In this document: positions 13,623-47,204 of the stretch, in pieces
Layout: each line of letters begins with the position of its first letter
Position numbering within the stretch: position 1 is the first letter of the stretch
Source: Bilabrum cf. latius
Taxonomy: Eukaryota
NCBI GenBank assembly: GCA_965178125.1
Contig: OZ237771.1
Span: 558,001-605,204 of the forward strand
Reading direction: 5' to 3'
DNA: 47,204 bases
The notes under the pieces: model-generated
What the model was told of the DNA's origin: nothing
Seen by the model: only the letters and a program-made list of their open reading frames with translations
Databases searched by the model: none
Program-made: the position numbers and the translations under genes

Positions 13623-13955
13623 TCTCGATGTAAACCCGCCCTTAAACTACAATAAATTAAAGGACGGTTGCAAGAACACGATTAGTCCACGATTTAAACC
13701 GCTAGGTGTTCGCGTTCATCGGCTTTGGGGCCCAATGTAATGTGCACGGTATAACATCCTCCAATATCGTATTTTTGGTCAACGGCAACTTGGGGATAAA
13801 GTAGCCAGCATGAAGGGGAATGGCTGTTTCTCAAGAAGAAATTTTGAATTTCAGTGCCAATAAGGATTTATCCTACAGTACTGGGAACCTCTCTCTGAAT
13901 TGAAGACAACTGCTTGAGAGCATAGGAACTGTCTGCGTAGCTGTAGTTGGAGTGA

Positions 13956-22300: not shown

Positions 22301-22960
22301 TAGGGGGGTTCCAAGCCAGAAGCTGCACCACCACGGAGGCTGCCAGCAAGCATGCGCGCTCCTCGGACTGATGGGACACGGGCACGGGGGCTGTCTGCGG
22401 CTGGCTGGCCTGCTGAGCTTGAGGGCCGGACGCGCCACGGAGCGCGTCTGCCGCTGCTGTTTGCCCGCAGTACTGAAGTGCCCTCGCGGCGGCCTGTGCT
22501 GCGGCTTGTCTAGCCGGCATGGGTGCATCCAGCCAAGTCGTGCGGACTAAACTTCGCAGGACCTGCGGCGACCAAGGGAAGGAATCAAGCCATGGGCACT
22601 TGCTTTGCAGCGGAGCATGCTGACTAGTATGCATTAAAACGAGCCTTATTTTGTCGTGACGCCCAGTCAATAATACCACTACATATTAAAATTATGCTGG
22701 GCCACACTGCGTTCCTTGGCTTGGCCAGGGCGAGCACTTACAGTGGCTGCGACAAAGAACGGCAAGCCATTGTCGACTTGTGGGCCGGCCTGCAGTGCCT
22801 GGCAGGATACCCTCCACGCTACTGGGCTATTTCCGAATGAATGTAAATAATCATGTGCGTTCTGCCATGCCTTGGATGACGGATCCCCAGAGACATGAAC
22901 ACACTAGATCGCGCTCCTGAACCTCCGAATGTGTTCGTCGACTCCTCCTCCCCCCTGCAT
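16344..22960 (-). CDS. Importin-beta/karyopherin-like HEAT-repeat protein (transportin-3/importin-13-like), ~2140 aa; intron 22563..22741
   Basis: Exon 1 (22960..22742) encodes AHDYLHSFGNSPVAW...FFVAAT, IBN_N-like; GTAAGT...CCGCAG intron. Five same-frame track ORFs join via TAG at 21720, 19476, 19329, 18657 and 16737; ends TAA. Confidence 0.65.
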
Positions 22961-29793: not shown

Positions 29794-29957
29794 CCAATTT
29801 ATTGCAAGCTGAAGGTGCTCTTGACTTTGCTCTTTTTGTTTCAAAAGTTGCCTGCTGCGAGTGTGTGATGAGTGAGTCTCAGAGGCACATAAACTGCCAG
29901 ATACCACAATAATAAGTCAGCTAAAACAATATTTTCTCAAGAGTTTGTTGAATTGCA

Positions 29958-32819
29958 ATGGCGGCTGCTCCCCGAGTTGCTGAGAAAGGGAGTAAACGTT
30001 TCAACTAGTTGCGCGAGCGAGGAAATGATTCGCAGGCCATCCTTCAAGCAAATGGCGTTAGAGTGTGGGTCAACAAGCAAGTTATTGGATTGAATAGTGA
30101 GCATGCAGCTATAGAGCTGGCCGTGTTGACACAGTCCGCCATTCTGCTGTAGTCATCACCCGGCTAGTCGAAGGTGGATCCATTGCTGCGACTGAGTACC
30201 TTTGATATCGTGGGTGCTCGAGTTGCATCGGCAGGACCCATCCGCCCTACAGACCCAGATCCACCTGTGCCTGGGGCAGACGATAGGCTTGTGAACGTGG
30301 TGGCTTGGCCCCGACCGGCGGAACCGGAGGGTTTCGCGTCTGGCTCGCACGACGCCCAGGGCGGGTGCTGCTCCTCCTGCGGGGCATCCTCCACTGCCAT
30401 TGACCTAAGGCCGCATGGATCGCTGCAAGCGGCTGCCGCTGAAGCCCGCGCAGCCGGCCTGTCCGTATCCGAGTCGGCGCTGCGGAAGGCCGCGGGAGCA
30501 ACCGGGCGCGGGGCTGCGCTCCGAGGGGATGGGGGGGCGGGCCCAGGCACGGCTGGGGCGGCTCCCTCTACGCATGCATCGGATATGCACGCAGCACACG
30601 CTGCCCCGGTCGCGCCTGTCCCTGGCAGTGCACTGCACTTCGAGCACGTCAGCCATGTTCGTGATGCTGGTGCGAAGCTTCCTTGGTGTGATGAGTGTGG
30701 TGGCACCTCAGGCGAGGTGCGGCAGCTCGAGCCCGATATTTCGGACGCACCGGAAGAGGGGGGCAGTCCGGTCACGGGCAGTGATGGTGATGGTGATGGT
30801 GATGGTGATGGTGATGGTGGTGGCGAGGCAGGGGCAGGGGCAGGAGCAGGGGCAGGGGCCAAAGGAGGTTCGATCCTTCGGCAGGCCTCGAGACACCAGG
30901 CCCGATGGAGGAACGAGCCGAGGGCAGCGCCCTTCCGGCCTGCGCAGGTGAGGGGGAGGGACCCCCCTGGGCGGCAGAGGGTGCTCCTGACGATGCTGCT
31001 GCCTTCCGCGCGGGAGGCCACCGACTGGGCGAGGGCGCTGCAGCGACTGGGCCGCGGGCTGCCCGTGGTGCGGCACTCAGGAGGCGAAGAGGGTGGAGAA
31101 GGGAGCGATGTCCCGCCGGGGGCCGTGCTGCCCGCCCCCCGGCGCCGCCTTCTGGTGATTGCATCGGACGCAAGTGGAATGGGTACGGCCAAGGATCTTC
31201 TCGGCGACCACTGGCGGCCCTTGCTGGAGCAGGACGGGGGCTGCGAGGTGGAGGAGATGTGGACTAGCGCGCCGGGGGATGCGCAGGGCATGATGCAGCG
31301 GCTGGACGTGAGCCGGGTGGATGCTGCGGTGGCCTGCGGGGGCGATGGTATCCTGCACGAGATGGTGCAGGGGCTGCTAGGCAGGGAGGACTGGGCCAGG
31401 GCACGGCTGCTGCCGCTGGGGCACCTCCCTGCGGGCAGCGGCAACGGGATGAGCAGGAGTGCCGCCTCTGCAGCCAGGGAGCCCTGGGACCGCGTGAGTC
31501 CTGCCTTCTTGCTGTGCAAGGGGGGTGTCTCGCCGCTGGATGTGGCCGCCACAGATGTGTGGCCCGAGGGGGAGAAGGCCCCCAGGCGGGTGTACTCCAT
31601 CCACCAGATCGAGTGGGCGGTGGCGGCGGACATCGACAGGGAGAGTGAGGCTTACCGGTGCCTGGGCCCCGACCGGTTTGCTGTGGCTGGCCTCGTGCGG
31701 GCGTTCTGCGTGCGGTGGTACGGGGGCAGGCTGTTCCTGCTGCGGGCAGGGCACAAGGGGGTGGGGCCTGTGGGCGCTGGGGGTGCCTCGTATGAGCCAG
31801 GCCATGGCTTAGACCGCCCCGGTGAGCACAAGGAGGGGGAGAGCGCGGCAGCTGCACCGAGTAACAGTGGCGGGATCACGGTATCTATGGGGGCGGGAGA
31901 CCCCCAGGAGGCCTTGCTGGGCACGGGCACTTCATCTGCCTCTGCAGCAGGAAACAAGCAGGCCACGGTTTCCTCTTCCAATTCCAGTGGACTGGTAGAC
32001 CCCTCTGTCTTCCGGAAGGCCTCTAGCCCAGCCTTTGACTGGAGGGACGACTCCACCCGGTCCCACGAGCAAGCCTCTTCGGCGGCTCACACGGTGGTAC
32101 TGGCCTCTCCTGATCTTCCCGCTGATGCCATCCACGGGGAGAGCGAGCCGGCCGCAGCAACGAGCGGGGCAGCGGCTCCGCGGGACGAGTAGGAGGCTCA
32201 GCCACAAGACGGCAAGCAGGAGCAGGCCACTCGTCACACCCTCAGGAACGTGCACCTGCCTCCCTTGACCTCTACGATCGGTGGAGTGGGGGGCCCAGGA
32301 GCACCCCTTACTCAAGCCACTGGATCCACTCCAGACGTACCCAGGGGGGCGGGGCCAGGAGCCCCGAGCGAGGACTTGGGGGGCCGGCGGCGCACCGGTG
32401 GGTTGGGTGCCGGGGGCCGGTGGGAGGTGGTGGAGGGCACCTTCTCGTACTTTTGGGCCTGCAGCTCCACGCACCAGAGCTACGACGTGAGCGCTGCCCC
32501 GCACTCTCGGTTCGACGATGGGGCGGCGTGGGTGACGCACGCGGGCCCGGCTCGGTGCTGCGGGATGGTGCAGCTGCTGCTGGGGCTGGACGAGGACGGG
32601 GGGCTGACGAGGCTGCCCTGGGTGGATGAAGACCCCGTGGTGGCGTGGAGGCTCGAGCCGGGGCCCAAAGCGGTGGCAGGCACGCAGGTGATGGTGGATG
32701 GGGAGGCGGTCGGGCATGGCCCGGTGCAGAGCGAGATCCACAGGGGCCTCCTGAGGCTCATCACCGGGGTCCCGATGGGAGATGCGCTGCCTGCAGAGGA
32801 TAGAGCCGGTCTTGTCTAA
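29958..32819 (+). CDS. Sphingosine kinase / DAGK-catalytic family lipid kinase (~953 aa)
   Basis: CGGDGILHEMVQGL, LPAGSGNGM, ADIDRESEAYRCLG..RF and C-terminal VMVDGE. Halves join via TAG 32190, with three more TAGs upstream of 30174; ends TAA. Confidence 0.9.
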
Positions 32820-32920: not shown

Positions 32921-35239
32921 ATGGATCTCGAGAGAGTGTCATCGGAAGCCATTTTCGCTAGCTAGTGGCTCCGTAAGCGCCTTCGGCGGGAGCATGGGAA
33001 TCGAATCCAAGGACCACTGAATGCTTTCGTTCGAGACCATGAGAAGAAGTCTAGTGCGGAAGCAGAAGCTCTAGAAGCCTGGGAGGCCTCCCCAAGTGAT
33101 AATAGTGCGCAAGATTATGTTCTCATGCAAAAGTCGTTAATGCCCCCGCCATTTCAGAAGCAATTATTGCCTGAAAGGCTTGGACCTGGCCCCACTGTTC
33201 GAATGCTGCAGCTGAACCCAGACAGGGGGGCAGCCAACCTAGCCACTTCGTTCGCAACCCAGATGGAAAGACAATATAGTGGTGATAGTATTGGCATGCT
33301 CAGCCGATTGCCACGGGAAGCAGTAGCAGCTGGAATGAGATGGGGGTGGGTCCACTGGCTAGCCGACGGACTGCCACAGCTGAGCCCGCCATCCTCCAGA
33401 AAACAGAGCAAAGAGCACACAAACTTGCAGCGCGTCGTTGGAGCCATTGCGCCTAGGCTCGCCCCAATGATGCTCACGCCGGTCGTAGCAGTTGCTGGAA
33501 GCCCTCCTCAGGCTGCTGGAGGCGAGCAGCTGTATATCACATCGGGGCCTGGCAGAAGGCTGCTGGGACAGACACGGTCCTCCCAGAGCGCAGGCAGTGC
33601 GTCCTCGCGTCAATTGGCGTGTGCAGCCGCGAACAGTCGGCTGCAGCTGGCCGTATCTGCCGGTGCAGTGGCGGTTCAGTCACCTGCCGGCGCCATGCCA
33701 GCCGGCTCCCTGGCCCGGCGCAAGGGGGGCGAGCTGGGCTGCTGGAAGCGAGACATGGCGCGGTGGGCGGCAGCCTTCGCACAGCGATGGGCAAGGCAGG
33801 GAAAATCAATGGCGGGCCAGGGGCAGAGACAGGGACAGGGGCCGGTGCATCAGGACCCCACGGCGGAGGTGCCAGTGGGCAGCGGGCGAGCCGTCGGGCC
33901 CTGGCCCAGGCCCATGCCAGCAGTGCTAAGCAAGAAACACAGGCCCCAAGGGGCCGCCCCGAGCCGGCTGCAACCCTACCTGTCCCTTGTGTGGGCGCAT
34001 GCCCAGGCGCTGGCTGCAGGGGAGGTGCCTGTCAGGGTGGCGGTGCCGGTGCTGGGGCTGCGGGAGGCTGCGCGGCTGTCGGCGTGCGCGGGTCGATTAG
34101 ATGCTGCCATGCAACGACCTGGCGCGCTGGGACTGGGGCTAGGGCTGGCCATGCTTCGAATAGGCGTCGGCAGCTGGGTGTCTGGCAGCTGGACCGTGGC
34201 AGAGGCACAGCTGAGCTTCAGGAGAGTAGAGCTCGGGAGAGAGCATGGGCTTGGCAGTTTCGATGGCGCAGACGGACCATCCGAATCTAGCAAGGTAAGC
34301 GCCAGCCCGAGTACAGACCCACGAGGAGAGGTGCCAGGTGATGTCACCAGTACTGTGCAGGACTGTGTATACAGACAGGCGCTTGGCCTCATGCTCCGTG
34401 TGTCCGTGGATGCCTGCGAGCGAGGGCTAGCCGAAGCGCAGTGGAGTGGAACCTTGGGAGCAGACCGACGAGCTGCACGGGAAGCATCCATCTCTTCTTC
34501 TGGCGATCACCATGCCCCCCTGAATGTGAGGGTCGCCAGGGTGGCGCTGGATGGGAGCCGTGGCTAGCTGCGTGGCCCTCGGCAAGAGCTTCAGAGGTGC
34601 CTGTAGATGCAGCCAGCTGCATAGGGCAGCCGTATTCACATCCCCTCTCGGCTGTGGGCGGCACTTCTCGGCTCCCCTCTCACTGCAGAGGAAATCTTTG
34701 CAGCTGCACAAGCGTCGACTTCTGGACCCAGCATTCAGAGCGGTGGTCGACCCAAGCCATGCCCAGCGGCTCGGGCTGCAGCAAGCGTAGCATGCGAGGC
34801 GCTGGCAGTTGCGGGTCCTGAGCGGCGCGAGTATCTGAAGGTATTCTTGAAGATGACGGGCGCGTATCCGTCGATGGCTTACGCGTAGGATCTACCGAAG
34901 TACGCCTGCCTGCGAACGCAACCAACCGATGGCACACTTATCATTGCTGCACCGAGGAGGGGGCTCTGTGATGGGGCACGTGCGGGAGGCGTGGTTGGCG
35001 CGTGGCTCATTACAGCAGAGCAGTCTGCCTCAGGTGATGGAGCTGCAGCATTGGTTGGCCGACATGTGTTGGAGATCGTACGTCCGGACCGTGGTAGCAC
35101 TGGAGTTGAGTGGCTCAGAGAGGTTGGCGAAATAGTGGCGGTGCCTGCAATCGCGGTGCGAGCTCAGGCGAACCTCACATTGCTGAACGCAGCCGCTCCT
35201 AAGACGAAGGTGGAGCGACTACCTCTAGACTTTCAGTAA
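32921..35239 (+). CDS. Hypothetical protein (~772 aa)
   Basis: Track ORFs 33125..34567 and 34991..35239 share a frame; open from ATG 32921 to TAA with 5 TAGs read through. No recognisable motif. Confidence 0.6.
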
Positions 35240-35581
35240 ATGATTTTGGGTGCGTGCAGCAACGCTACGGCTACGAACCAACTCAAACACGTTTGATGCA
35301 GGTCGACAATGGATGCCACTGAATGGTCTACCATCCGGATCGGAACTCTTGGAGCACACGGTGGGCGGCGATTGTCACGAATTGTGGCCCACGGTTCAGC
35401 TTGCAGCTGCCATTAGTCACCCGCGTTGGCCTTTCAAGCACATGTGTCGTGCAGCAAGATATATTTGCTGCACCAAAGGTGTCAACCGCGCTCGCGAGGC
35501 TCCTGCGGAAGCTCTCGGTGTATCGGGATGTTAGCCATGGATCATCTAAGCGTGTTCCCCACCACTAACCTTCTGTTTGTA

Positions 35582-36110
35582 GCCCCATCCACCGCATGCA
35601 CACTCAACCTGCTTGCACCGGCACACGAAACATGACCCAATCCACCGCACGCACACCCAACCTGCTTGCACCAGCACACGAAACATGGCCCCATCCACCG
35701 CACGCACACCCAACCTGCTTGCACCAGCACACGAAACATGGCCCCATCCACCGCACGCACACCCAACCTGCTTGCACCAGCACACGAAACATGGCCCCAT
35801 CCACCGCACGCACACCCAACCTGCTTGCACCAGCACACGAAACATGGCCCCATCCACCGCACGCACACCCAACCTGCTTGCACCAGCACACGAAACATGG
35901 CCCCATCCACCGCACGCACACCCAACCTGCTTGCACCAGCACACGAAACATGGCCCCATCCACCGCACGCACACCCAACCTGCTTGCACCAGCACACGAA
36001 ACATGGCCCCATCCACCGCACGCACACCCAACCTGCTTGCACCAGCACACGAAACATGGCCCCATCCACCGCACGTACACCCAACCTGCTTGCACCAGCA
36101 CACAAAACAT
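35582..36110. repeat. 53-bp subtelomeric tandem repeat, ~10 copies
   Basis: Unit ccatccaccgcacgcacacccaacctgcttgcaccagcacacgaaacatggcc; terminal copies diverged. Confidence 0.97.
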
Positions 36111-36246
36111 TAGGGTTAGAGGCCCCGCACGGAACCTGAACGGAGAACCTTCTTCCTTGGTTCTCCCTAATTCTTCTCGAGGAAACTTCCAGGAAAGCAT
36201 CCGAATATGCAACTTTGAGCGCGGGCTGGAGCTTCAATTAATGCAA

Positions 36247-37388
36247 TAGGTTTAGGGTTAGGGTTAGGTTAGGGTTAGGGTTAGGGCTAGGGTATCAGGG
36301 GGTCTTTAGGTTTTTTAGGGTTTTTTTTAGGGTTAGGGTTAGGGTTAGGGTTAGGGTTAGGGTTAGGGTTAGGGTTAGGGTTAGGGTTAGGGTTAGGGTT
36401 AGGGTTAGGGTTAGGGTTAGGGTTAGGGTTAGGGTTAGGGTTAGGGTTAGGGTTAGGGTTAGGGTTAGGGTTAGGGTTAGGGTTAGGGTTAGGGTTAGGG
36501 TTAGGGTTAGGGTTAGGGTTAGGGTTAGGGTTAGGGTTAGGGTTAGGGTTAGGGTTAGGGTTAGGGTTAGGGTTAGGGTTAGGGTTAGGGTTAGGGTTAG
36601 GGTTAGGGTTAGGGTTAGGGTTAGGGTTAGGGTTAGGGTTAGGGTTAGGGTTAGGGTTAGGGTTAGGGTTAGGGTTAGGGTTAGGGTTAGGGTTAGGGTT
36701 AGGGTTAGGGTTAGGGTTAGGGTTAGGGTTAGGGTTAGGGTTAGGGTTAGGGTTAGGGTTAGGGTTAGGGTTAGGGTTAGGGTTAGGGTTAGGGTTAGGG
36801 TTAGGGTTAGGGTTAGGGTTAGGGTTAGGGTTAGGGTTAGGGTTAGGGTTAGGGTTAGGGTTAGGGTTAGGGTTAGGGTTAGGGTTAGGGTTAGGGTTAG
36901 GGTTAGGGTTAGGGTTAGGGTTAGGGTTAGGGTTAGGGTTAGGGTTAGGGTTAGGGTTAGGGTTAGGGTTAGGGTTAGGGTTAGGGTTAGGGTTAGGGTT
37001 AGGGTTAGGGTTAGGGTTAGGGTTAGGGTTAGGGTTAGGGTTAGGGTTAGGGTTAGGGTTAGGGTTAGGGTTAGGGTTAGGGTTAGGGTTAGGGTTAGGG
37101 TTAGGGTTAGGGTTAGGGTTAGGGTTAGGGTTAGGGTTAGGGTTAGGGTTAGGGTTAGGGTTAGGGTTAGGGTTAGGGTTAGGGTTAGGGTTAGGGTTAG
37201 GGTTAGGGTTAGGGTTAGGGTTAGGGTTAGGGTTAGGGTTAGGGTTAGGGTTAGGGTTAGGGTTAGGGTTAGGGTTAGGGTTAGGGTTAGGGTTAGGGTT
37301 AGGGTTAGGGTTAGGGTTAGGGTTAGGGTTAGGGTTAGGGTTAGGGTTAGGGTTAGGGTTAGGGTTAGGGTTAGGGTTAGGGTTAGGG
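36247..37388 (+). repeat. Telomeric (TTAGGG)n tract 1: degenerate 36247..36326, then 177 perfect copies
   Basis: Read directly from the sequence. Confidence 0.99.
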
Positions 37389-37448
37389 TATCTATTATAA
37401 AGTCAGGGACAGGGTCGGGGAAAAATATTTTCATCTTCACTTTTTGAC

Positions 37449-39410
37449 AAAATCCTGCGGGATACGATCTCGGCAACCACAGGAGATATGAAGACCGTTC
37501 AAATTGCGTTGGGACGGCCTAGGGCCACATCATTGGCCAAATGTTCCTCAGGTTCCGCTTTTGACGCGCGGCGCCAATATTGGGCCTTGAAGATTTTCAT
37601 GCTGAAATCCTGCGGGATACGATCTCGGCAACCACAGGAGATATGAAGACCGTTCAAATTGCGTTGGGACGGCCTAGGGCCACAACATTGGCCAAATGTT
37701 CCTCAGGTTCCGCTTTTGACGCGCGGCGCCAATATTGGGCCTTGAAGATTTTCATGCTGAAATCCTGCGGGATACGATCTCGGCAACCACAGGAGATATG
37801 AAGACCGTTCAAATTGCGTTGGGACGGCCTAGGGCCACAACATTGGCCAAATGTTCCTCAGGTTCCGCTTTTGACGCGCGGCGCCAATATTGGGCCTTGA
37901 AGATTTTCATGCTGAAATCCTGCGGGATACGATCTCGGCAACCACAGGAGATATGAAGACCGTTAAAATTGCATTGGGACGGCCTAGAGCCACATCATTG
38001 GCCAAATGTTCCTCAGGTTCCGCTTTTGACGCGCGGCGCCAATATTGGGCCTTGAAGATTTTCATGCTGAAATCCTGCGGGATACGATCTCGGCAACCAC
38101 AGGAGATATGAAGACCGTTCAAATTGCGTTGGGACGGCCTAGGGCCACATCATTGGCCAAATGTTCCTCAGGTTCCGCTTTTGACGCGCGGCGCCAATAT
38201 TGGGCCTTGAAGATTTTCATGCTGAAATCCTGCGGGATACGATCTCGGCAACCACAGGAGATATGAAGACCGTTCAAATTGCGTTGGGACGGCCTAGAGC
38301 CACATCATTGGCCAAATGTTCCTCAGGTTCCGCTTTTGACGCGCGGCGCCAATATTGGGCCTTGAAGATTTTCATGCTGAAATCCTGCGGGATACGATCT
38401 CGGCAACCACAGGAGATATGAAGACCGTTCAAATTGCGTTGGGACGGCCTAGAGCCACATCATTGGCCAAATGTTCCTCAGGTTCCGCTTTTGACGCGCG
38501 GCGCCAATATTGGGCCTTGAAGATTTTCATGCTGAAATCCTGCGGGATACGATCTCGGCAACCACAGGAGATATGAAGACCGTTCAAATTGCGTTGGGAC
38601 GGCCTAGGGCCACATCATTGGCCAAATGTTCCTCAGGTTCCGCTTTTGACGCGCGGCGCCAATATTGGGCCTTGAAGATTTTCATGCTGAAATCCTGCGG
38701 GATACGATCTCGGCAACCACAGGAGATATGAAGACCGTTCAAATTGCGTTGGGACGGCCTAGAGCCACATCATTGGCCAAATGTTCCTCAGGTTCCGCTT
38801 TTGACGCGCGGCGCCAATATTGGGCCTTGAAGATTTTCATGCTGAAATCCTGCGGGATACGATCTCGGCAACCACAGGAGATATGAAGACCGTTCAAATT
38901 GCGTTGGGACGGCCTAGGGCCACAACATTGGCCAAATGTTCCTCAGGTTCCGCTTTTGACGCGCAGCGCCAATATTGGGCCTTGAAGATTTTCATGCTGA
39001 AATCCTGCGGGATACGATCTCGGCAACCACAGGAGATATGAAGACCGTTCAAATTGCGTTGGGACGGCCTAGGGCCACATCATTGGCCAAATGTTCCTCA
39101 GGTTCCGCTTTTGACGCGCGGCGCCAATATTGGGCCTTGAAGATTTTCATGCTGAAATCCTGCGGGATACGATCTCGGCAACCACAGGAGATATGAAGAC
39201 CGTTAAAATTGCATTGGGACGGCCTAGGGCCACATCATTGGCCAAATGTTCCTCAGGTTCCGCTTTTGACGCACGGCGCCAATATTGGGCCTTGAAGATT
39301 TTCATGCTGAAATCCTGCGGGATACGATCTCGGCAACCACAGGAGATATGAAGACCGTTCAAATTGCGTTGGGACGGCCTAGGGCCACAACATTGGCCAA
39401 ATGTTCCTCA
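37449..39410. repeat. 155-bp satellite, ~12.6 copies (variant A)
   Basis: Exact 155-nt period (track ORFs at 37580, 37735, 37890...). Confidence 0.98.
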
Positions 39411-39446
39411 GATTCATTGTACTTCATTCAGTGCAAGTATGGCGTA

Positions 39447-41927
39447 TTGAAACCTACTCGGGGGAGGTTTCAAAACCTACCCAGGGCGGTTTCAAAACCT
39501 ACCCAGGGCGGTTTCAAAACCTACCCAGGGCGGTTTCAAAACCTACCCAGGGCGGTTTCAAAACCTACCCAGGGCGGTTTCAAAACCTACCCAGGGCGGT
39601 TTCAAAACCTACCCAGGGCGGTTTCAAAACCTACCCAGGGCGGTTTCAAAACCTACCCAGGGCGGTTTCAAAACCTACCCAGGGCGGTTTCAAAACCTAC
39701 CCAGGGCGGTTTCAAAACCTACCCAGGGCGGTTTCAAAACCTACCCAGGGCGGTTTCAAAACCTACCCAGGGCGGTTTCAAAACCTACCCAGGGCGGTTT
39801 CAAAACCTACCCAGGGCGGTTTCAAAACCTACCCAGGGCGGTTTCAAAACCTACCCAGGGCGGTTTCAAAACCTACCCAGGGCGGTTTCAAAACCTACCC
39901 AGGGCGGTTTCAAAACCTACCCAGGGCGGTTTCAAAACCTACCCAGGGCGGTTTCAAAACCTACCCAGGGCGGTTTCAAAACCTACCCAGGGCGGTTTCA
40001 AAACCTACCCAGGGCGGTTTCAAAACCTACCCAGGGCGGTTTCAAAACCTACCCAGGGCGGTTTCAAAACCTACCCAGGGCGGTTTCAAAACCTACCCAG
40101 GGCGGTTTCAAAACCTACCCAGGGCGGTTTCAAAACCTACCCAGGGCGGTTTCAAAACCTACCCAGGGCGGTTTCAAAACCTACCCAGGGCGGTTTCAAA
40201 ACCTACCCAGGGCGGTTTCAAAACCTACCCAGGGCGGTTTCAAAACCTACCCAGGGCGGTTTCAAAACCTACCCAGGGCGGTTTCAAAACCTACCCAGGG
40301 CGGTTTCAAAACCTACCCAGGGCGGTTTCAAAACCTACCCAGGGCGGTTTCAAAACCTACCCAGGGCGGTTTCAAAACCTACCCAGGGCGGTTTCAAAAC
40401 CTACCCAGGGCGGTTTCAAAACCTACCCAGGGCGGTTTCAAAACCTACCCAGGGCGGTTTCAAAACCTACCCAGGGCGGTTTCAAAACCTACCCAGGGCG
40501 GTTTCAAAACCTACCCAGGGCGGTTTCAAAACCTACCCAGGGCGGTTTCAAAACCTACCCAGGGCGGTTTCAAAACCTACCCAGGGCGGTTTCAAAACCT
40601 ACCCAGGGCGGTTTCGAAACCTACCCAGGGCGGTTTCGAAACCTACCCAGGGCGGTTTCAAAACCTACCCAGGGCGGTTTCAAAACCTACCCAGGGCGGT
40701 TTCAAAACCTACCCAGGGCGGTTTCAAAACCTACCCAGGGCGGTTTCAAAACCTACCCAGGGCGGTTTCAAAACCTACCCAGGGCGGTTTCAAAACCTAC
40801 CCAGGGCGGTTTCAAAACCTACCCAGGGCGGTTTCAAAACCTACCCAGGGCGGTTTCAAAACCTACCCAGGGCGGTTTCAAAACCTACCCAGGGCGGTTT
40901 CAAAACCTACCCAGGGCGGTTTCAAAACCTACCCAGGGCGGTTTCAAAACCTACCCAGGGCGGTTTCAAAACCTACCCAGGGCGGTTTCAAAACCTACCC
41001 AGGGCGGTTTCAAAACCTACCCAGGGCGGTTTCAAAACCTACCCAGGGCGGTTTCAAAACCTACCCAGGGCGGTTTCAAAACCTACCCAGGGCGGTTTCA
41101 AAACCTACCCAGGGAGGTTTCAAAACCTACCCAGGGAGGTTTCAAAACCTACCCAGGGCGGTTTCAAAACCTACCCAGGGCGGTTTCAAAACCTACCCAG
41201 GGCGGTTTCAAAACCTACCCAGGGCGGTTTCAAAACCTACCCAGGGCGGTTTCAAAACCTACCCAGGGCGGTTTCAAAACCTACCCAGGGCGGTTTCAAA
41301 ACCTACCCAGGGCGGTTTCAAAACCTACCCAGGGCGGTTTCAAAACCTACCCAGGGCGGTTTCAAAACCTACCCAGGGCGGTTTCAAAACCTACCCAGGG
41401 CGGTTTCAAAACCTACCCAGGGCGGTTTCAAAACCTACCCAGGGCGGTTTCAAAACCTACCCAGGGCGGTTTCAAAACCTACCCAGGGAGGTTTCAAAAC
41501 CTACCCAGGGAGGTTTCAAAACCTACCCAGGGAGGTTTCAAAACCTACCCAGGGAGGTTTCAAAACCTACCCAGGGCGGTTTCAAAACCTACCCAGGGCG
41601 GTTTCAAAACCTACCCAGGGCGGTTTCAAAACCTACCCAGGGCGGTTTCAAAACCTACCCAGGGCGGTTTCAAAACCTACCCAGGGCGGTTTCAAAACCT
41701 ACCCAGGGCGGTTTCAAAACCTACCCAGGGAGGTTTCAAAACCTACCCAGGGCGGTTTCAAAACCTACCCAGGGAGGTTTCAAAACCTACCCAGGGAGGT
41801 TTCAAAACCTACCCAGGGAGGTTTCAAAACCTACCCAGGGAGGTTTCAAAACCTACCCAGGGAGGTTTCAAAACCTACCCAGGGAGGTTTCAAAACCTAC
41901 CCAGGGAGGTTTGAAACCTACCCTAGG
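39447..41927. repeat. 22-bp minisatellite GGTTTCAAAACCTACCCAGGGC, ~112 copies
   Basis: Read directly; no spacers; C>A variant enriched distally. Confidence 0.98.
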
Positions 41928-42039
41928 TGTGGGTTTGGGAATCCAGTGGTTATTGACCGATATTCAATGTTGTGGCTCGTTCTACGTAGCCATATGTATG
42001 CGTTAACCTCCTTGGTCGATACATCGCTTTGACATCAGG

Positions 42040-42354
42040 TATTCGTTGGCTTATAGTCAAGACTAAATAGATTGCGTCCTGGCTCCTACTATCCCGTCCT
42101 AACGGGTCACTGGCTGGCACTCTGGCAAGCTCCTCTCACAAGCTGGCCCAGCTGCCACTGACCTCAATTGGTATCCGCCTGGCTGCTTTTCACTCGTTAT
42201 CGGAGGAGGGTTCCGCATCGACAGCTGCCAGGAGCGCCTCAACAGCGTCCACGTCTGCTGCATTGAGATCTCCTTCCGCCGTCTTCTCGAGGGCCGTCAT
42301 CAGGCCTACGAGCGTGCCCAACCCGTCGTCCCTCTCTTGAATTGTTTCCTGCAC
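42040..42354 (-). pseudogene. 3'-terminal fragment (last ~54 codons + 3' flank) of the element ORF
   Basis: About 21 mismatches in 315 bp versus 44252..44566 by manual alignment; ends abruptly at telomeric repeats. Confidence 0.9.
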
Positions 42355-43169
42355 AGGGTTAGGTTAGGGGTTAGGGGTTAGGGTTAGGGTTAGGGTTAGG
42401 GTTAGGGTTAGGGTTAGGGTTAGGGTTAGGGTTAGGGTTAGGGTTAGGGTTAGGGTTAGGGTTAGGGTTAGGGTTAGGGTTAGGGTTAGGGTTAGGGTTA
42501 GGGTTAGGGTTAGGGTTAGGGTTAGGGTTAGGGTTAGGGTTAGGGTTAGGGTTAGGGTTAGGGTTAGGGTTAGGGTTAGGGTTAGGGTTAGGGTTAGGGT
42601 TAGGGTTAGGGTTAGGGTTAGGGTTAGGGTTAGGGTTAGGGTTAGGGTTAGGGTTAGGGTTAGGGTTAGGGTTAGGGTTAGGGTTAGGGTTAGGGTTAGG
42701 GTTAGGGTTAGGGTTAGGGTTAGGGTTAGGGTTAGGGTTAGGGTTAGGGTTAGGGTTAGGGTTAGGGTTAGGGTTAGGGTTAGGGTTAGGGTTAGGGTTA
42801 GGGTTAGGGTTAGGGTTAGGGTTAGGGTTAGGGTTAGGGTTAGGGTTAGGGTTAGGGTTAGGGTTAGGGTTAGGGTTAGGGTTAGGGTTAGGGTTAGGGT
42901 TAGGGTTAGGGTTAGGGTTAGGGTTAGGGTTAGGGTTAGGGTTAGGGTTAGGGTTAGGGTTAGGGTTAGGGTTAGGGTTAGGGTTAGGGTTAGGGTTAGG
43001 GTTAGGGTTAGGGTTAGGGTTAGGGTTAGGGTTAGGGTTAGGGTTAGGGTTAGGGTTAGGGTTAGGGTTAGGGTTAGGGTTAGGGTTAGGGTTAGGGTTA
43101 GGGTTAGGGTTAGGGTTAGGGTTAGGGTTAGGGTTAGGGTTAGGGTTAGGGTTAGGGTTAGGGTTAGGG
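42355..43169 (+). repeat. Telomeric (TTAGGG)n tract 2, ~135 copies, with irregular first units (TTAGG, TTAGGGG)
   Basis: Read directly from the sequence. Confidence 0.99.
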
Positions 43170-43230
43170 TATCTAATATAAAGTCAGGGACAGGGTCGGG
43201 GAAAAAATATTTTCATCTTCGAATTTTGAC

Positions 43231-44092
43231 AAAATCCTGCGGGATACGATCTCGGCAACCACAGGAGATATGAAGACCGTTCAAATTGTATTGGGACGGC
43301 CTAGGGCCACAACATGGGGCAAATGTTCCCCAGGTTCCGTTTTTGACGCGCGGCGCCAATATTGGGCCTTGAAGATTTTCATGCTGAAATCCTGCGGGAT
43401 ACGATCTCGGCAACTACAGGAGATATGAAGACCGTTCAAATTGCATTGGGACGGCCTAGGGCCACAACATGGGGCAAATGTTCCCCAGGTTCCGTTTTTG
43501 ACGCGCGGCGCCAATATTGGGCCTTGAAGATTTTCATGCTGAAATCCTGCGGGATACGATCTCGGCAACTACAGGAGATATGAAGACCGTTCAAATTGCA
43601 TTGGGACGGCCTAGGGCCACAACATGGGGCAAATGTTCCCCAGGTTCCGTTTTTGACGCGCGGCGCCAATATTGGGCCTTGAAGATTTTCATGCTGAAAT
43701 CCTGCGGGATACGATCTCGGCAACCACAGGAGATATGAAGACCGTTCAAATTGCATTGGGACGGCCTAGGGCCACAACATGGGGAAAATGTTCCCCAGGT
43801 TCCGTTTTTGACGCGCGGCGCCAATATTGGGCCTTGAAGATTTTCATGCTGAAATCCTGCGGGATACGATCTCGGCAACTACAGGAGATATGAAGACCGT
43901 TCAAATTGCATTGGGACGGCCTAGGGCCACAACATGGGGCAAATGTTCCCCAGGTTCCGTTTTTGACGCGCGGCGCCAATATTGGGCCTTGAAGATTTTC
44001 ATGCTGAAATCCTGTGGGATACGATCTCGGCAACCACAGGAGATATGAAGACCGTTCAAATTGCATTGGGACGGCCTAGGGCCACAACATGG
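43231..44092. repeat. 155-bp satellite, ~5.5 copies (variant B)
   Basis: Same unit as 37449..39410 with fixed differences (catggggcaaatgttcccc vs cattggccaaatgttcctc). Confidence 0.97.
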
Positions 44093-44401
44093 TGCAAAAA
44101 TTTCTTTGATGTCAGTGGGGTCACTTGATAATGTCACGTTCAAAATATGGGAATCACGTCTTTGTGATGATAGTCGTTTGATAGTCAGTAGTTCTGTTGA
44201 GATGATGTTTATGGCAGTGGTTTATTTTTGGAGGATTGTATTAATACCAGATATTCGTTGGCTTATAGTCAAGACTAAACAGAATGCCTCTTGGCTCCTA
44301 CTATTCCGTCCTAACGGGTCACTGGCTGGCACATTGGCAAACTCCTCTCACAAGCTGGCCCAGCTGCCACTGACCTCAATTGCCATCCGATTGGCTGCTT
44401 T

Positions 44402-45943
44402 TCACTCGTCATCGGAGGAGGGTTCCGCACCGACAGCTGCCAGGAGCGCCTCCACAGCGTCCACGTCTGCCGCATTGAGATCTCCTTCCGCCGTCTTCTC
44501 GAGGGCCGTCATCAGGTCTGCGAGCATGCCCAATCCGTGGTCCCTCTCTTGAATTGTTTCCTGCACGTCCTCGACCATGTCGTCGATAGTCCGGCTGACG
44601 CCCAGCGCGGTGTCATCGCAGGCAGTGAGGATGCGGTCCACCAGGTGCCGCTGCTAGTCGGTGAAGCCGTTGTCCTCCACTCCACCGTCGTTCTCAGAGT
44701 CGTCTTGCTGGTTCTGGGCCTCGTTCTCTTCTTCCTCATCCAGCTCGTTCCCATCCTCCTCGTCCTGCTGCACGAGCCCTATCGGAGCCTCATCCTCGTC
44801 CTCCTCTCCGGCTGCGTCTGCGTGGTACCGACCACGGATCTCCTCTTCATCTTCCTCAGAGTCCTGTCGAGGCAGTGATGCTGCTGCTCCACTCCTTGCG
44901 CCACTTGCTCCCCTCTTCTCCTGGTCATCGGCGCGGCGAGCTCCTCCGCCATAGCCCGGCTGGAGGACGGGCAATCGCTTGGGCTGCATCTTAGCCGGAG
45001 GCGCGGCTTCAGCGTGCCTGCCCTTCGGCTCTGCCGATCGGGCACCCTTGCCCTTCGACTTGCCCTTAGACTTGCCCTTAGACTTGCCCTTAGACTTGCC
45101 CGCGGCCTTGGTCCTGGCGCTGAGCTTGGCCTTTGCCTTAGCCTTTCTCTCGGCCTCCGCCGCTCGCTTGGGGCCGAGTAGCTCGTTGTTCAGTCGCTCG
45201 GTCGCTGAGTCGCTGGACTCTGAGTCGTCCCGACCCATCCCGCCCTGCTCCCTCCGGGCCGTATAGGCTCTGTGCTCCACGTCATCTTCGTCGTCGTCGT
45301 CGTCGTCGTCGTCCATGGCACTCCGCTTGCCCTTCCGCGTACGGGGTGCACTACTCGGCACGGCAGCAGCGGCTCCCGAAGAATCACCTTGATCTCGTGC
45401 TGAAGCCTCGGCAGAGTCGTCAACCGGCAACTCGAGCATGTCCTTGAAGACAGCCTGCATGCCTCCACGACCACGCACAGAGGCTTTCCCAGCTCCGTGG
45501 TCGCAGACGAACTTGAGCACGGTCTTGTAGTTCCTCCGCAGGCCGTCCATGCCTGCCTTGAACCAAGGATTGTGGTTGGTTGAATAGCCGCTGTCGCGCA
45601 GGCCCATGAGCAGCTGCTTCATCTTCCGAAAGCCTGGCGAGCTGGAGCCGCTGGTTGATGCAGCCGGGTACAGGCGACGGTTCAGCGACTCGAGCACGCC
45701 AGACGGCAGCTTGGACTCATCCAGCGCCAGGATGGCATCCACACAGGCCTTGATGCCCGCCTTCTTGGTCCCTTCGTAGTGCTCCGTAGACCCGCAGAGC
45801 AGCCCACAGTCTTGGTGGAGGCCCACGAGGGAGATCAGCAGGACCTGCTTGGCCGCGGACGTGGCGACGCCTGAAGCCAGGGCGGCCACGACAGGGCGAG
45901 ACTTGCTGGTGTGCTTGACGCTGTAGCTCTTTGCGGCGGCCAT
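44402..45943 (-). CDS. Element-encoded hypothetical protein (513 aa; folded-looking N-terminus, basic KGKS repeats, acidic tracts, helical C-terminus)
   Basis: ATG 45943 (MAAAKSY), preceded by ccgcag; track ORFs ending 44654 and 44402 share a frame and join via TAG 44654; ends TGA. Confidence 0.75.
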
Positions 45944-46175
45944 GGTACTCTGCGGTGCCAGGGGAACACGGGTGAGGCCACGAACAGGCGCTTGGATGCG
46001 GCAGGGAACACGGACATGAGACCCAGGGATACTCCAGGGCAAGCTCGAGGGGCAAAAAAAAAAAAAAAGGACACAACCCCGCCCACTCGGTCTCAGACCC
46101 GGGACCCATGATGTTGGGTCGGTTCTCCGGTCGTGGGGGCCCGGGCCCCAGCCAGCAAAAAAATAAAATAAAAAG

Positions 46176-46255
46176 TGCCCCAACGGGAATCGAACCTCGG
46201 GGGTAGTCCGGGGTGCGATTACCAACCGTACGCAATACCACTACACCACCACAGC
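46176..46255 (-). pseudogene. Degenerate tRNA-like sequence / Pol III internal promoter
   Basis: A box TGGTGTAGTGG, B box GGTTCGATTCC, 7-nt loop TTGGTAA on an imperfect stem, followed by TTTTT. Acceptor and T stems pair poorly. Confidence 0.6.
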
Positions 46256-46828
46256 AACCCACGCGAAACCGAAAAAAATTACAGATTCGCATCAAAAGTG
46301 CACGCAACTTGCACTTGTCACGCCGAAACCTACCCGTTCACCCAACGAGCAGCGCGAAATCAGAAACACTCATATTGCGCTCCTTGTATTCAATTGCAGA
46401 GGCGCATACTTGGCATATAGCTACTATAGCATATTGTGCATACAACCCTAAAGCAAACGTGAGTCAAATCGATGGGGTATGCGTGGGGATTGCCTTGCGC
46501 AATGCGCTTGCTGCAACGTGGTTCAGACGTTTGGCTCAATTGCGCGACGGCAAGCACTCGTTGGAACTAATCTCGCGCATATTATCAAATAATATAACAT
46601 ACTGCAAACAATTGCGCGGCGATATATAGGCTGCGCGCCCAATGCTCACTTTGCTTGCGGCAGGTGTGCTGCGACAACATTTGTGGTGGCCCGGATCAGG
46701 TTGCGGAACCTGATGCGCGGCACCGCCGTGACGAGTGCGCCACCAGGGAACAACGCATCGTACCATCATACTAATCACATCCCAAGTATATTATATATCC
46801 TTGTGGCATCTCTGTCCGCAGTCTGGTC

Positions 46829-47204
46829 ATGGCGCAGTCCACGTACGACGCCACCAAGCATGTGAAGGCTCTCGATTACCTCCGGGCCTTCCTGGACCGC
46901 CGCGCGAAGGGCTACGCTCAGAACCCGCATCGCGTGCGCATCGGAGTCCCAGGGCCACTTCAACCAGGAGGTGCCGCCCTGCCTGGCCCGCCGGCCGGCG
47001 AGGCGCAGGCCCAGATCCCGGCCCAGGTGGGGCCAGCGCCAGGCGGCCATGCCGCCGGGGGGGGCGATGCGGCAGGCCTGCCGGCCCCCGTCCCAGCCAT
47101 CGGCGAGCATGCTCCGGAGCACCAGCACCAGCAGCAAGAGGGCGCCCACCAACCACCACCTGGTGCAGCTCTTGCTGCTGGCCAGCAGGCGATGCCCGCC
47201 GCCC
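46829..47204 (+). CDS. 5' part of a hypothetical protein, truncated by the window end (MAQSTYDATKHVKALDYLRAFLDRRAKGY...)
   Basis: Open from ATG 46829 to the window end, GC3-rich codons, ccgcag acceptor-like motif 7 nt upstream. Absent from the track because it has no stop in the window. Confidence 0.6.
   Translation, partial: MAQSTYDATKHVKALDYLRAFLDRRAKGYAQNPHRVRIGVPGPLQPGGAALPGPPAGEAQAQIPAQVGPAPGGHAAGGGDAAGLPAPVPAIGEHAPEHQHQQQEGAHQPPPGAALAAGQQAMPAA

What the first reader, a model, noticed from the sequence alone, without database searches (positions are those of the whole stretch)
36247..47204. Stacked telomere-attached elements: (TTAGGG)n-[unit]-(TTAGGG)n-[unit]
Seen: both tracts have the same polarity, with no CCCTAA, so this is not an end-to-end fusion. 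Both exit at the same phase into a conserved ~60-bp junction (TTAGGG|tatctawtataaagtcagggacagggtcggggaaaaatattttcatcttc), then a 155-bp array, then the 3' end of a minus-strand ORF. The element's sense strand points inward and ends in (CCCTAA)n with no poly(A). Known: endonuclease-deficient Penelope-like elements (Athena/Terminons) have this polarity and are primed by the G-rich overhang; yeast Y' and Magnaporthe MoTeR also sit between telomeric tracts. Inference: an undescribed telomere-extending or telomere-targeting element family. No RT is visible in the window.
Basis: partly seen in the sequence, partly recalled or inferred. Interest (0 to 1): 0.85.

Follow-up and report, generated by a model that had tools for sequence, protein, structure and literature searches.

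The report
Stacked telomere-attached subtelomeric units
Two diverged copies of an undescribed gene-carrying repeat unit sit one behind the other, each attached to the outer side of a long TTAGGG tract, much like yeast Y' elements; whether they spread by recombination or by reverse transcription is still open.

Summary
There are two same-polarity TTAGGG tracts, with 177 and 132 perfect repeats and no CCCTAA runs. Each tract ends at the same phase into the same ~60-bp junction, followed by a 155-bp satellite and the 3' end of a minus-strand ORF.

Unit 1 (37389-42354) is cut inside that ORF and capped by tract 2, whose first repeats are irregular, as in telomerase healing. Unit 2 (43170-47204+) carries the whole 513-codon ORF (P0001), plus a divergent plus-strand gene with a GTGAGT..AG intron.

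The units are 93-95% alike. Their 155-bp arrays are homogenised separately and their spacers differ, so this is not a local tandem duplication.

Neither gene has a family or homologues outside its own lineage. No RT, hammerhead ribozyme or poly(A) was found in the window. GC content and in-frame TAG use look host-like.

Best reading (about 0.45): a Y'-like subtelomeric family copied onto telomere ends through the internal TTAGGG tracts, with breakage and healing between two captures. A telomere-primed retroelement (about 0.2) and an assembly mis-join (about 0.12) are not excluded. Only k-mer contigs of public runs were available, so spanning reads and other chromosome ends could not be checked.

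The parts
35582..36110 (.). 53-bp satellite, 10 copies: the native subtelomere of this chromosome end, unrelated to the units
   Evidence: TRF. BLAST finds it only here.
36247..37388 (+). TTAGGG tract 1. The proximal ~80 bp hold degenerate variants (TTAGG, CTAGGG, TATCAGGGGG, T-rich forms); 177 perfect repeats follow at 36327-37388. It looks like the original telomere of this end.
37389..37449 (.). Junction of unit 1: TATCTATTATAAAG, then three telomere-like hexamers (TCAGGG ACAGGG TCGGGG), an A-run, and the lead-in to the 155-bp array
   Evidence: Alignment with the unit 2 junction
37450..39415 (.). 155-bp satellite of unit 1, 12.7 copies
   Evidence: TRF. Within-array mean is 1.8 differences per 155 nt, against 7.25 between arrays; 4 positions are fixed between the two arrays.
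39450..41923 (.). 22-bp satellite, 112.5 copies, present in unit 1 only
42040..42354 (-). Truncated gene module of unit 1: about 150 nt of 3' UTR plus the stop and last 54 codons (CDS fragment 42190-42354) of a P0001-type ORF, cut after ...CCTGCAC
42355..43169 (+). TTAGGG tract 2. It starts irregularly (AGGG TTAGG TTAGGGG TTAGGGG), then has 132 perfect repeats at 42378-43169. Read as telomerase healing of the broken unit 1.
43170..43231 (.). Junction of unit 2, in the same phase as unit 1. It differs by one A/T change, one extra A and GAA for ACT.
   Evidence: The unit-1-type variant is also seen as a contig in run X2 (tables 3 and 4).
43232..44098 (.). 155-bp satellite of unit 2, 5.6 copies
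44402..45943 (-). P0001: ORF of 513 codons plus stop, with one in-frame TAG at 44654-44656. It has a helical N-terminal ~175 aa, a long acidic/basic low-complexity middle and a ~85-aa C-terminal part. No family and no homologues.
   Evidence: TAG is probably a sense codon in this genome.
46175..46256 (-). Degenerate tRNA-like stretch followed by a T-run, in the intergenic region between the two genes
   Evidence: ARAGORN calls it only at lowered thresholds. Default ARAGORN and Rfam do not.
46459..46821 (+). Intron (GTGAGT...AG) in the 5' leader of the plus-strand gene
   Evidence: A contig of run X6 joins 46458 to 46822, skipping 363 nt with ends GT..AG and 69 nt on the shorter side (table 5). 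Splice-site letters were read.
46829..47204 (+). Start of a second, divergently oriented gene that runs off the window. The full-length relative P0103 (413 aa, 97% identical) is low-complexity with no Pfam family.

Best explanation
This is a chromosome end carrying two members of an undescribed, gene-bearing subtelomeric repeat family. They were added one after the other, each on the outer side of what was then the terminal telomere.

A unit consists of a ~60-bp junction, a 155-bp satellite, a variable spacer, the P0001 gene reading inward, and a second gene reading outward.

Proposed course of events:
1. The native telomere (tract 1) annealed to the internal TTAGGG tract that precedes a unit on another chromosome end. 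It primed outward copying (break-induced replication), as yeast telomeres acquire Y' elements. This reproduces the donor's tract-to-unit junction exactly.
2. The new end later broke inside P0001 and was healed by telomerase (tract 2).
3. The healed telomere captured a second unit from a different subfamily.

Shown by the sequence: the anatomy, the single polarity, the identical junction phase, the truncation followed by irregular first repeats, the 5-7% divergence with separately homogenised arrays, and the host-like genes on both strands.

Inferred: the recombination mechanism, the existence of donor ends, and the order of events.
For: - Same polarity and same exit phase of both tracts. The junction plus first repeat is 95% identical.
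- Tract 1 has a degenerate proximal part and lies next to a private 53-bp satellite, as a native telomere would.
- Unit 1 stops at ...CCTGCAC where unit 2 continues ...GTCCTCG. It is followed by irregular and then perfect repeats.
- The units are not a local duplication. Identity is 95.3% and 93.1%. The spacers are different and unalignable. The 155-bp arrays differ at 6-8 positions between arrays but 1.4-1.8 within, with 4 fixed differences.
- Both tracts are perfect (177 and 132 repeats), so they are younger than the divergence of the units.
- At least one further version of the ORF exists beyond unit 1's break point. Two contigs per run cover 44721-44882, with 2 and 12 differences in X2 and 12 and 6 in X5 (table 8).
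- The genes look resident. GC is 0.63 (P0001) and 0.73 (plus-strand gene) against 0.64 for the rest of the window. P0001 has an in-frame TAG like the host genes. The plus-strand gene has a GTGAGT..AG intron.
- No RT, endonuclease or viral domain was found in any ORF of unit 2 or in P0103. No hammerhead was found.
- The Y' parallel comes from passages read. Internal telomere tracts lie proximal to and between tandem Y' elements, which have an internal tandem 36-mer array, ORFs and length classes. ITS run from 20 bp up to 957 bp (10.1101/2025.11.13.688250). Y' is acquired through terminal-to-internal TG1-3 recombination and Pol32-dependent BIR (PMC4222662).
Against: - No second chromosome end was seen, so it is unknown whether units sit at many ends behind internal tracts.
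- The internal tracts here (0.8-1.1 kb, perfect) are longer than most Y' ITS. They look like whole telomeres, which suits addition at the very tip.
- Fixed inward orientation of the ORF, distal truncation capped by telomere repeats, and the absence of poly(A) are exactly what telomere-primed retroelements show.
- The minus strand carries three C-rich telomere-like hexamers 14 nt from the joint, which could pair with the G-overhang.
- The unit runs off the window, so an RT further out is not excluded.
- Two independent captures plus a break at one end is a rather eventful history.
Confidence: 0.45

Rival explanations
1. The unit is a telomere-primed retroelement: Athena/Terminon-like, or a non-autonomous passenger of one. 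Its minus-strand RNA ends next to C-rich telomere-like repeats, pairs with the G-overhang and is reverse transcribed from the chromosome's 3' end. Incomplete copies are capped by telomerase and the next copy is added on top.
For: - The ORF's sense strand points inward and abuts (CCCTAA)n without poly(A).
- The inner copy is truncated at its distal (5') side and capped by telomere repeats, and the copies are head to tail.
- Full-length-looking tracts (0.8-1.1 kb) fit addition at the tip of the telomere.
- CCCCGA, CCCTGT and CCCTGA hexamers lie near the putative 3' end.
- The copies belong to diverged subfamilies, as from different source copies.
- Passages read say Terminons are mostly 5'-truncated by telomeric repeats, form head-to-tail arrays and can enclose host genes (PMC6431247). 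MoTeRs always have their 5' ends nearest the chromosome end and are separated by (TTAGGG)n (PMC7367193).
Against: - No RT or endonuclease in 4 kb of unit 2 or in the 413-aa neighbour gene.
- No hammerhead ribozyme at E <= 1.
- No significant fold at the putative 3' end (z -0.89 and -0.84).
- Genes on both strands, host-like composition, and an intron kept in the plus-strand gene.
- Kilobases of satellite lie between the ORF and the joint, and the spacers between modules are not conserved.
Confidence: 0.2
2. The stack is an assembly mis-join. Reads of true chromosome ends (the native end at tract 1, and a healed broken unit at tract 2) were chained through TTAGGG repeats to reads of internal tract-to-unit junctions that lie elsewhere in the genome.
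For: - Tract 1 looks like an ordinary terminal telomere.
- The window differs from all four public runs at some sites, for example 44836 G where every contig has C, and a 1-nt homopolymer difference at 46271. The assembly may therefore carry long-read errors, or come from another strain.
- No read-level data could be examined.
Against: - A mis-join still needs real reads in which TTAGGG repeats are followed by the unit. Two distinct junction variants exist, so at least two genuine tract-to-unit joints must exist somewhere.
- The tracts are only 0.8-1.1 kb with unique anchors on both sides, easily spanned by long reads.
- The same error would have had to happen twice in a row.
Confidence: 0.12
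3. The units are the ends of a larger DNA element, either a telomere-integrating virus or a linear episome. It carries telomere-like repeats at its terminus and enters host telomeres by repeat homology, as chromosomally integrated HHV-6 does. This comparison is recalled; only a search listing of PMC7444522 was seen.
For: - The arrangement is host telomere, then element, then telomere, with direct polarity.
- Imperfect telomere-like hexamers lie at the element's edge.
- Both genes are orphans.
Against: - No viral hallmark domain was found.
- P0001 has no relative in 2.9 million viral contigs, and the junction and 155-bp unit are absent there.
- Composition and TAG use match the host.
- A spliceosomal-type intron is present.
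Confidence: 0.06

Closest known systems
Saccharomyces cerevisiae Y' subtelomeric elements
   Same: - Repeat units sit distal to an internal telomere-repeat tract, sometimes in tandem with a tract between copies.
- They have an internal tandem-repeat array, one or two ORFs, and length classes that differ by internal indels.
- They are acquired by telomeres through recombination between terminal and internal repeats followed by BIR.

Source: passages of 10.1101/2025.11.13.688250 and PMC4222662.
   Different: - There is no sequence relation and no helicase ORF.
- The internal tracts here are 0.8-1.1 kb and perfect, against mostly 20-500 bp in yeast.
- The inner copy is broken and healed.
- The host is a GC-rich protist whose SSRP1 is only 38% identical to its best named (oomycete) hits.
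- Spread over many ends was not shown.
Endonuclease-deficient Penelope-like elements (Athena, Coprina, Terminons)
   Same: - The 3' end is attached to the G-rich telomere strand.
- Copies are 5'-truncated and capped by telomeric repeats, in head-to-tail arrays.
- Large units may carry extra or host ORFs.

Source: passages of PMC6431247 and PMC8557442.
   Different: - The defining PLE reverse transcriptase was not seen.
- The hammerhead ribozyme next to reverse-complement telomere repeats was not found.
- The tracts between copies are long here, not short stretches.
- Satellites make up most of the telomere-proximal part.
MoTeR and FoTeR telomeric non-LTR retrotransposons of fungi
   Same: - Orientation is fixed, with the 5' end toward the chromosome end.
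- Arrays are separated by (TTAGGG)n, and truncated copies are capped by telomeres.
- Internal tracts promote breaks, healing and BIR.

Source: passages of PMC7367193; abstract and section 19 of PMC12857005.
   Different: - Those elements encode an RT and are 1.7-5 kb (sizes recalled).
- Their inter-element tracts run from half a repeat to about 20 repeats.
- They carry variant repeats at the 5' end.
- None of this is seen here. The 5' end of a full unit lies outside the window.
Drosophila HeT-A / TART / TAHRE
   Same: Head-to-tail, 5'-truncated arrays with 3' ends toward the centromere, built by reverse transcription onto chromosome ends. This is recalled; only the listing and start of the abstract of PMC5537684 were seen.
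   Different: Those elements join by poly(A) and replace telomerase repeats. Here there is no A-run at the joint, and telomerase-type repeats are abundant.

Membership tests
Y'-like subtelomeric repeat (functional class, not sequence family) | Internal telomere-repeat tract on the centromere-proximal side of each unit and between tandem units, all in one polarity | tested here: met
   2 of 2 units in the window
Y'-like subtelomeric repeat (functional class, not sequence family) | Present at several chromosome ends as a diverged family | tested here: inconclusive
   Two diverged copies lie in the window. At least one further ORF variant per run is seen in X2 and X5. Their locations are unknown, and they could be haplotypes or strains. 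No genome is held.
Y'-like subtelomeric repeat (functional class, not sequence family) | Spread by recombination or BIR between terminal and internal telomere repeats | not testable with these tools
   This needs other chromosome ends, strain comparisons or genetics.
S. cerevisiae Y' sequence family | Y'-Help1 helicase ORF and homology to Y' | tested here: not met
   P0001 and P0103 have no Pfam family. P0001 gave no homologues, P0103's sole hit was its own 97% relative, neither gave a helicase.
EN-deficient Penelope-like elements (Athena/Coprina/Terminon) | PLE-type reverse transcriptase ORF | tested here: inconclusive
   None was found in any ORF of 43170-47204 or in the 413-aa P0103. The unit continues beyond the window.
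EN-deficient Penelope-like elements (Athena/Coprina/Terminon) | Hammerhead ribozyme motif next to reverse-complement telomeric repeats at the 3' end | tested here: not met
   Rfam gave 0 matches at gathering scores over 35000-47204 and 0 matches at E <= 1 over 43100-47204. Only three imperfect C-rich hexamers are present.
EN-deficient Penelope-like elements (Athena/Coprina/Terminon) | Head-to-tail copies, 5'-truncated and capped by telomeric repeats | tested here: met
   Unit 1 is truncated at 42354 and followed by tract 2 and then unit 2. This holds if the minus strand is taken as sense.
MoTeR/FoTeR-type telomeric non-LTR retrotransposons | RT (with restriction-like endonuclease) ORF, and variant telomere-like repeats at the 5' end | tested here: inconclusive
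   No RT is in the window. The 5' end of a complete unit is not in the window.
HeT-A/TART-type telomeric LINEs | Poly(A) at the joint with the chromosome end | tested here: not met
   The joint reads ...TTAGGG|TATCTA in both units, with no T-run on plus or A-run on minus at the joint.
Telomere-integrating virus (HHV-6-like mode) | Viral hallmark genes in the inserted DNA | tested here: inconclusive
   None in the 4 kb seen. No relatives in viral contigs. The element's full extent is unknown.

The most novel reading that the evidence does not exclude
The units are a new kind of telomere-primed mobile element in a poorly sampled protist lineage. One possibility is a giant Terminon-like retroelement whose RT lies beyond the window. 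Another is a non-autonomous RNA copied onto G-overhangs by a trans-acting RT, conceivably telomerase itself after a template switch. The C-rich telomere-like hexamers near the 3' end would serve as the annealing site, and P0001 as its RNA-binding or Gag-like protein.
Probability: 0.2. Interest if true: 0.8.

Novelty: new member of a known kind. Interest (0 to 1): 0.45.

Why it matters
Arrays of telomere tract, unit, telomere tract, unit preserve a record of how a chromosome end was rebuilt: capture, breakage, healing and capture again. They are known in detail from only a few organisms (yeast Y', blast-fungus MoTeRs, rotifer Athena/Terminons, Drosophila).

A clean example in a GC-rich protist that also seems to read TAG as a sense codon would extend that picture to a new lineage. 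Its kilobase-long perfect internal tracts are expected to be fragile, which makes this end a natural place to study internal-telomere breakage and repair.

If an RT turned out to be involved, this would be a new telomere-adding retroelement family outside animals and fungi.

Tried and rejected
- **Whole genome.** None is held for this window, so other chromosome ends could not be searched.
- **Earlier scan notes.** Nothing by place or by sequence. One word hit concerned a primate locus and is irrelevant.
- **Public runs, listing.** 12 holders in 7 studies, all kept as Logan contigs. No RNA holder was listed.
- **Public runs, laid.**
  - 4 of 4 runs were laid, but contigs cannot show spanning reads, copy number or transcript ends.
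  - No listed record bridges 43169/43170, so the telomere-to-unit joint itself was not independently confirmed.
  - X5, X6 and X8 had no cover on 43135-43270, and X6 and X8 none on 43135-44222. These holes prove nothing.
  - X6 and X8 are of unrecorded kind, and the tool guesses X6 is probably DNA. If X6 is DNA, the GT..AG skip marks an intron-less DNA copy rather than a spliced RNA.
  - Whether other copies share the in-frame TAG could not be read from the output.
  - Depths were not used as copy numbers.
- **Junction 25-mer.** 0 matches in metagenome contigs, viral contigs and prokaryote genome contigs. The 155-bp unit 43-mer had 0 matches in viral contigs.
- **P0001 homology.**
  - 0 hits among 8000 scored candidates.
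  - HMMER over 1.84 billion representatives gave 4 hits at E <= 0.001. One is an 87-aa fragment of the same family (95% over residues 1-78). The other three are repeat proteins (bZIP_Maf repeats, ankyrin, an internal repeat protein), judged spurious.
  - No relatives in metagenome loci (589 pattern matches, 0 confirmed) or viral loci (592 matches, 0 confirmed).
  - PDB sequences gave 0 hits.
  - Pfam gave only a 9-bit EBNA2 match far below its cut-off.
  - The Atlas recognition score of 1955 is below the useful level, and its hits were unnamed viral clusters at 0.90-0.91.
- **Structure.** AlphaFold2 on the N-terminal 175 aa without an alignment gave pLDDT 47.6. This is too poor for a fold search, so none was run.
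- **RNA fold.** The minus-strand end next to the telomere is not more stable than shuffles.
- **tRNA.** My visual impression of a tRNA gene at about 46175-46256 was not borne out by default ARAGORN or Rfam. It appears only at lowered thresholds.
- **Broad repeat search.** The repeat finder on the whole window returned only the tandem arrays and added nothing.
- **Thraustochytrid comparison.** The thraustochytrid LORE-TEARS and telomeric mirusvirus case (passages of 10.1101/2023.06.15.545109) was considered. That organism has TTAGG repeats and about 45% GC, and its architecture (rDNA plus 366-529-bp repeats) is different.
- **Chromosome-breakage motif.** Rejected for the tract-to-unit joint, because telomerase adds G-strand repeats 3' of a break, not 5' of it.
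- **Literature.** Searches for an already described equivalent in protists listed none. This is not proof of absence. Supplementary files were not consulted.

Full report
**The observation**

The two telomere-repeat tracts are real and far beyond chance. (TTAGGG)3 matches 306 times, against 0 expected in 100 shuffles. No CCCTAACCCTAA occurs in the window, and no TTAGGGTTAGGG lies outside the tracts.

- Tract 1 spans 36247-37388. Its first ~80 bp are degenerate variants, followed by 177 perfect repeats.
- Tract 2 spans 42355-43169. It opens with AGGG TTAGG TTAGGGG TTAGGGG and continues with 132 perfect repeats.

Both tracts end ...TTAGGG|TATCTA. The following junction and first 155-bp repeat are 229/241 identical. 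Tandem Repeats Finder confirms the 155-bp arrays (12.7 and 5.6 copies). It adds a 22-bp array of 112.5 copies in unit 1 and a 53-bp array of 10 copies just inside tract 1.

**Anatomy of the units**

BLAST of unit 2 on the window finds only two shared modules:
- junction plus 155-bp array: 43171-44090 = 37390-38308, 95.3% identical;
- a gene-end module: 44248-44566 = 42036-42354, 93.1% identical.

The spacers between the modules do not align. Unit 1's spacer is 2.6 kb and includes the 22-bp array; unit 2's is 160 bp.

Unit 1 ends at ...CCTGCAC, where unit 2 continues ...GTCCTCGACC. So unit 1 is a copy cut inside the ORF and capped by tract 2.

Unit 2 holds the whole ORF, P0001 (44402-45943, minus strand, 513 codons), with one in-frame TAG. 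It also holds about 0.9 kb of intergenic DNA and the start of a plus-strand gene.

**The two units are not a local duplication**

The 155-bp repeats differ by 1.4-1.8 positions within an array but by 6-8 between arrays. Four positions are fixed between the arrays. The two units therefore come from separately evolving sources.

The perfect tracts are younger than the 5-7% divergence of the units.

**What the genes are**

*P0001* has no known relatives.
- Pfam finds no family.
- There were no homologues among 8000 scored candidates.
- An exhaustive HMMER search gave only an 87-aa fragment of its own family, plus three spurious repeat proteins.
- There was no PDB relative, and a single-sequence model was poor (pLDDT 47.6).

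*The plus-strand gene* has a 97% identical full-length relative of 413 aa. It is low-complexity and has no Pfam family.

No other ORF of unit 2 matches a family above its cut-off. So no RT, endonuclease, helicase, integrase or viral gene is visible in the window, nor in about 0.9 kb of coding sequence beyond it.

**The host and the TAG codon**

The rest of the window carries ordinary eukaryotic genes: SSRP1/POB3, a kinase and a diacylglycerol-kinase domain protein. SSRP1 is at best 38% identical to named (oomycete) proteins, so the host is a poorly sampled lineage.

Reading TAG as a residue joins the two halves of the kinase domain (DFG ... APE, about 650 residues apart) into one 1459-codon frame. 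That frame has 6 in-frame TAG and no TGA or TAA, while its other two frames carry 31-32 TGA/TAA. Three further frames of 956-2114 codons behave the same way.

TAG is therefore probably not a stop in this organism, and P0001 is probably intact.

P0001 (GC 0.63) and the plus-strand gene (GC 0.73) match the host's composition of 0.64.

**Public reads**

No genome is held. Twelve public runs from seven studies hold part of unit 2, all kept as k-mer contigs. Four runs were laid at 90% likeness or better. What the contigs show:
- Unit 2 is covered by many short variant contigs. In X2, 97 were laid, with 46/28/23 in the >=99, 95-99 and 90-95% classes.
- At 44721-44882, which lies beyond unit 1's break point, each of X2 and X5 has two versions (2 and 12, and 12 and 6 differences). 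At least one more version of the gene therefore exists: at another locus, on another haplotype or in another strain.
- The unit-1-type junction variant (one A fewer, GAA to ACT) is present in X2.
- An X6 contig joins 46458 to 46822 and skips a GTGAGT...AG segment. I read this as a spliced leader intron of the plus-strand gene.

What the contigs cannot show: spanning molecules, copy number, transcript ends, or the tract-to-unit joint itself, since no bridging record was listed.

**Tests of the retroelement reading**

- Rfam finds nothing at curated thresholds over 35000-47204. It also finds nothing at E <= 1 over 43100-47204. There is therefore no hammerhead ribozyme, which passages of PMC8557442 and PMC6431247 describe as standing next to the reverse-complement telomere repeats at the 3' end of Athena, Coprina and Terminons.
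- The minus-strand end next to the telomere folds no better than shuffles.
- There is no poly(A) at the joint.

In favour of the retroelement reading:
- the fixed inward orientation;
- the distal truncation capped by telomere repeats;
- the three C-rich telomere-like hexamers 14 nt from the joint;
- tract lengths that look like whole telomeres.

**Interpretation**

DNA lying distal to a G-strand tract can only get there in a few ways: addition to a telomere end, or insertion of telomere repeats internally. The identical joint in two diverged copies points to a templated process acting on a family.

The simplest process that needs no missing gene is the one documented for yeast Y'. A terminal tract pairs with an internal tract in front of a unit on another end, and BIR copies the unit outward (PMC4222662, passages). 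Y' elements also have proximal internal tracts, an internal tandem array, ORFs and length classes (10.1101/2025.11.13.688250, passages).

MoTeR arrays show that long internal tracts break, get healed and start BIR (PMC7367193, passages). That fits the broken and healed unit 1.

My odds:
- Y'-like reading: 0.45;
- telomere-primed retroelement: 0.2;
- mis-join: 0.12, noting that even a mis-join requires genuine tract-to-unit joints of two variants somewhere in the genome;
- telomere-integrating DNA element: 0.06;
- the remainder is unassigned.

**Novelty and score**

The family is new in sequence. Its host lineage is new for this architecture, and the internal tracts are unusually long and perfect. 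But the kind of structure (stacked, telomere-attached units separated by telomere tracts) is known.

I rate it a new member of a known kind, interest 0.45. The interest would rise considerably if an RT or a junction-reaching transcript were found.

Noticed in passing
window 3926-8305 (+), 8400-13715 (-), 16344-22685 (-), 29952-32819 (+), 44402-45943 (-): TAG is probably a sense codon. Frames of 956-2114 codons contain 4-14 in-frame TAG but no TGA or TAA, while their other frames hold 18-38 TGA/TAA. The two lobes of a kinase domain lie in one frame across in-frame TAGs. Which residue TAG encodes was not determined.
   Followed up: partly
window 3926-8305 (+): A protein kinase with about 650 low-complexity residues inserted between the DFG and APE motifs. 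From recall this resembles Greatwall/MASTL/Rim15-type kinases. Pfam Pkinase E = 1.5e-43 when read as one frame.
   Followed up: partly
window 35582-36110: A 53-bp satellite (10 copies, 98% matches) lies directly inside the native-looking telomere. It is unrelated to the 155-bp and 22-bp satellites of the units.
   Followed up: partly
window 39450-41923: A 22-bp satellite of 112.5 nearly identical copies is present in unit 1 but absent from unit 2. It accounts for most of the length difference between the units.
   Followed up: partly
window 46175-46256 (-): A degenerate tRNA-like stretch with a GGTTCGATTCC-type T-loop is followed by a T-run, in the intergenic region of unit 2. ARAGORN calls it only at lowered thresholds and Rfam not at all.
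   Followed up: yes
window 14705-14996 and 15833-16065: Two coding-frame tandem repeats (75 bp x 3.9 at 100% matches; 60 bp x 3.9 at 96%) lie inside a long TAG-containing frame (13956-16097, plus strand).
   Followed up: no
window 44836, 46207, 46271, 46279: The window differs here from every laid contig that covers the site: at 44836 all four runs read C where the window has G, and at the other three sites X2 and X5 do (X6 and X8 have no contig there). This points to either assembly errors or a strain difference.
   Followed up: no
protein P0099 (public collection), matching window 45710-45943 (-): An 87-aa predicted protein is 95% identical to P0001 residues 1-78 and then diverges. It may be a frameshifted or rearranged further copy of the gene. 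Its DNA could not be fetched.
   Followed up: no
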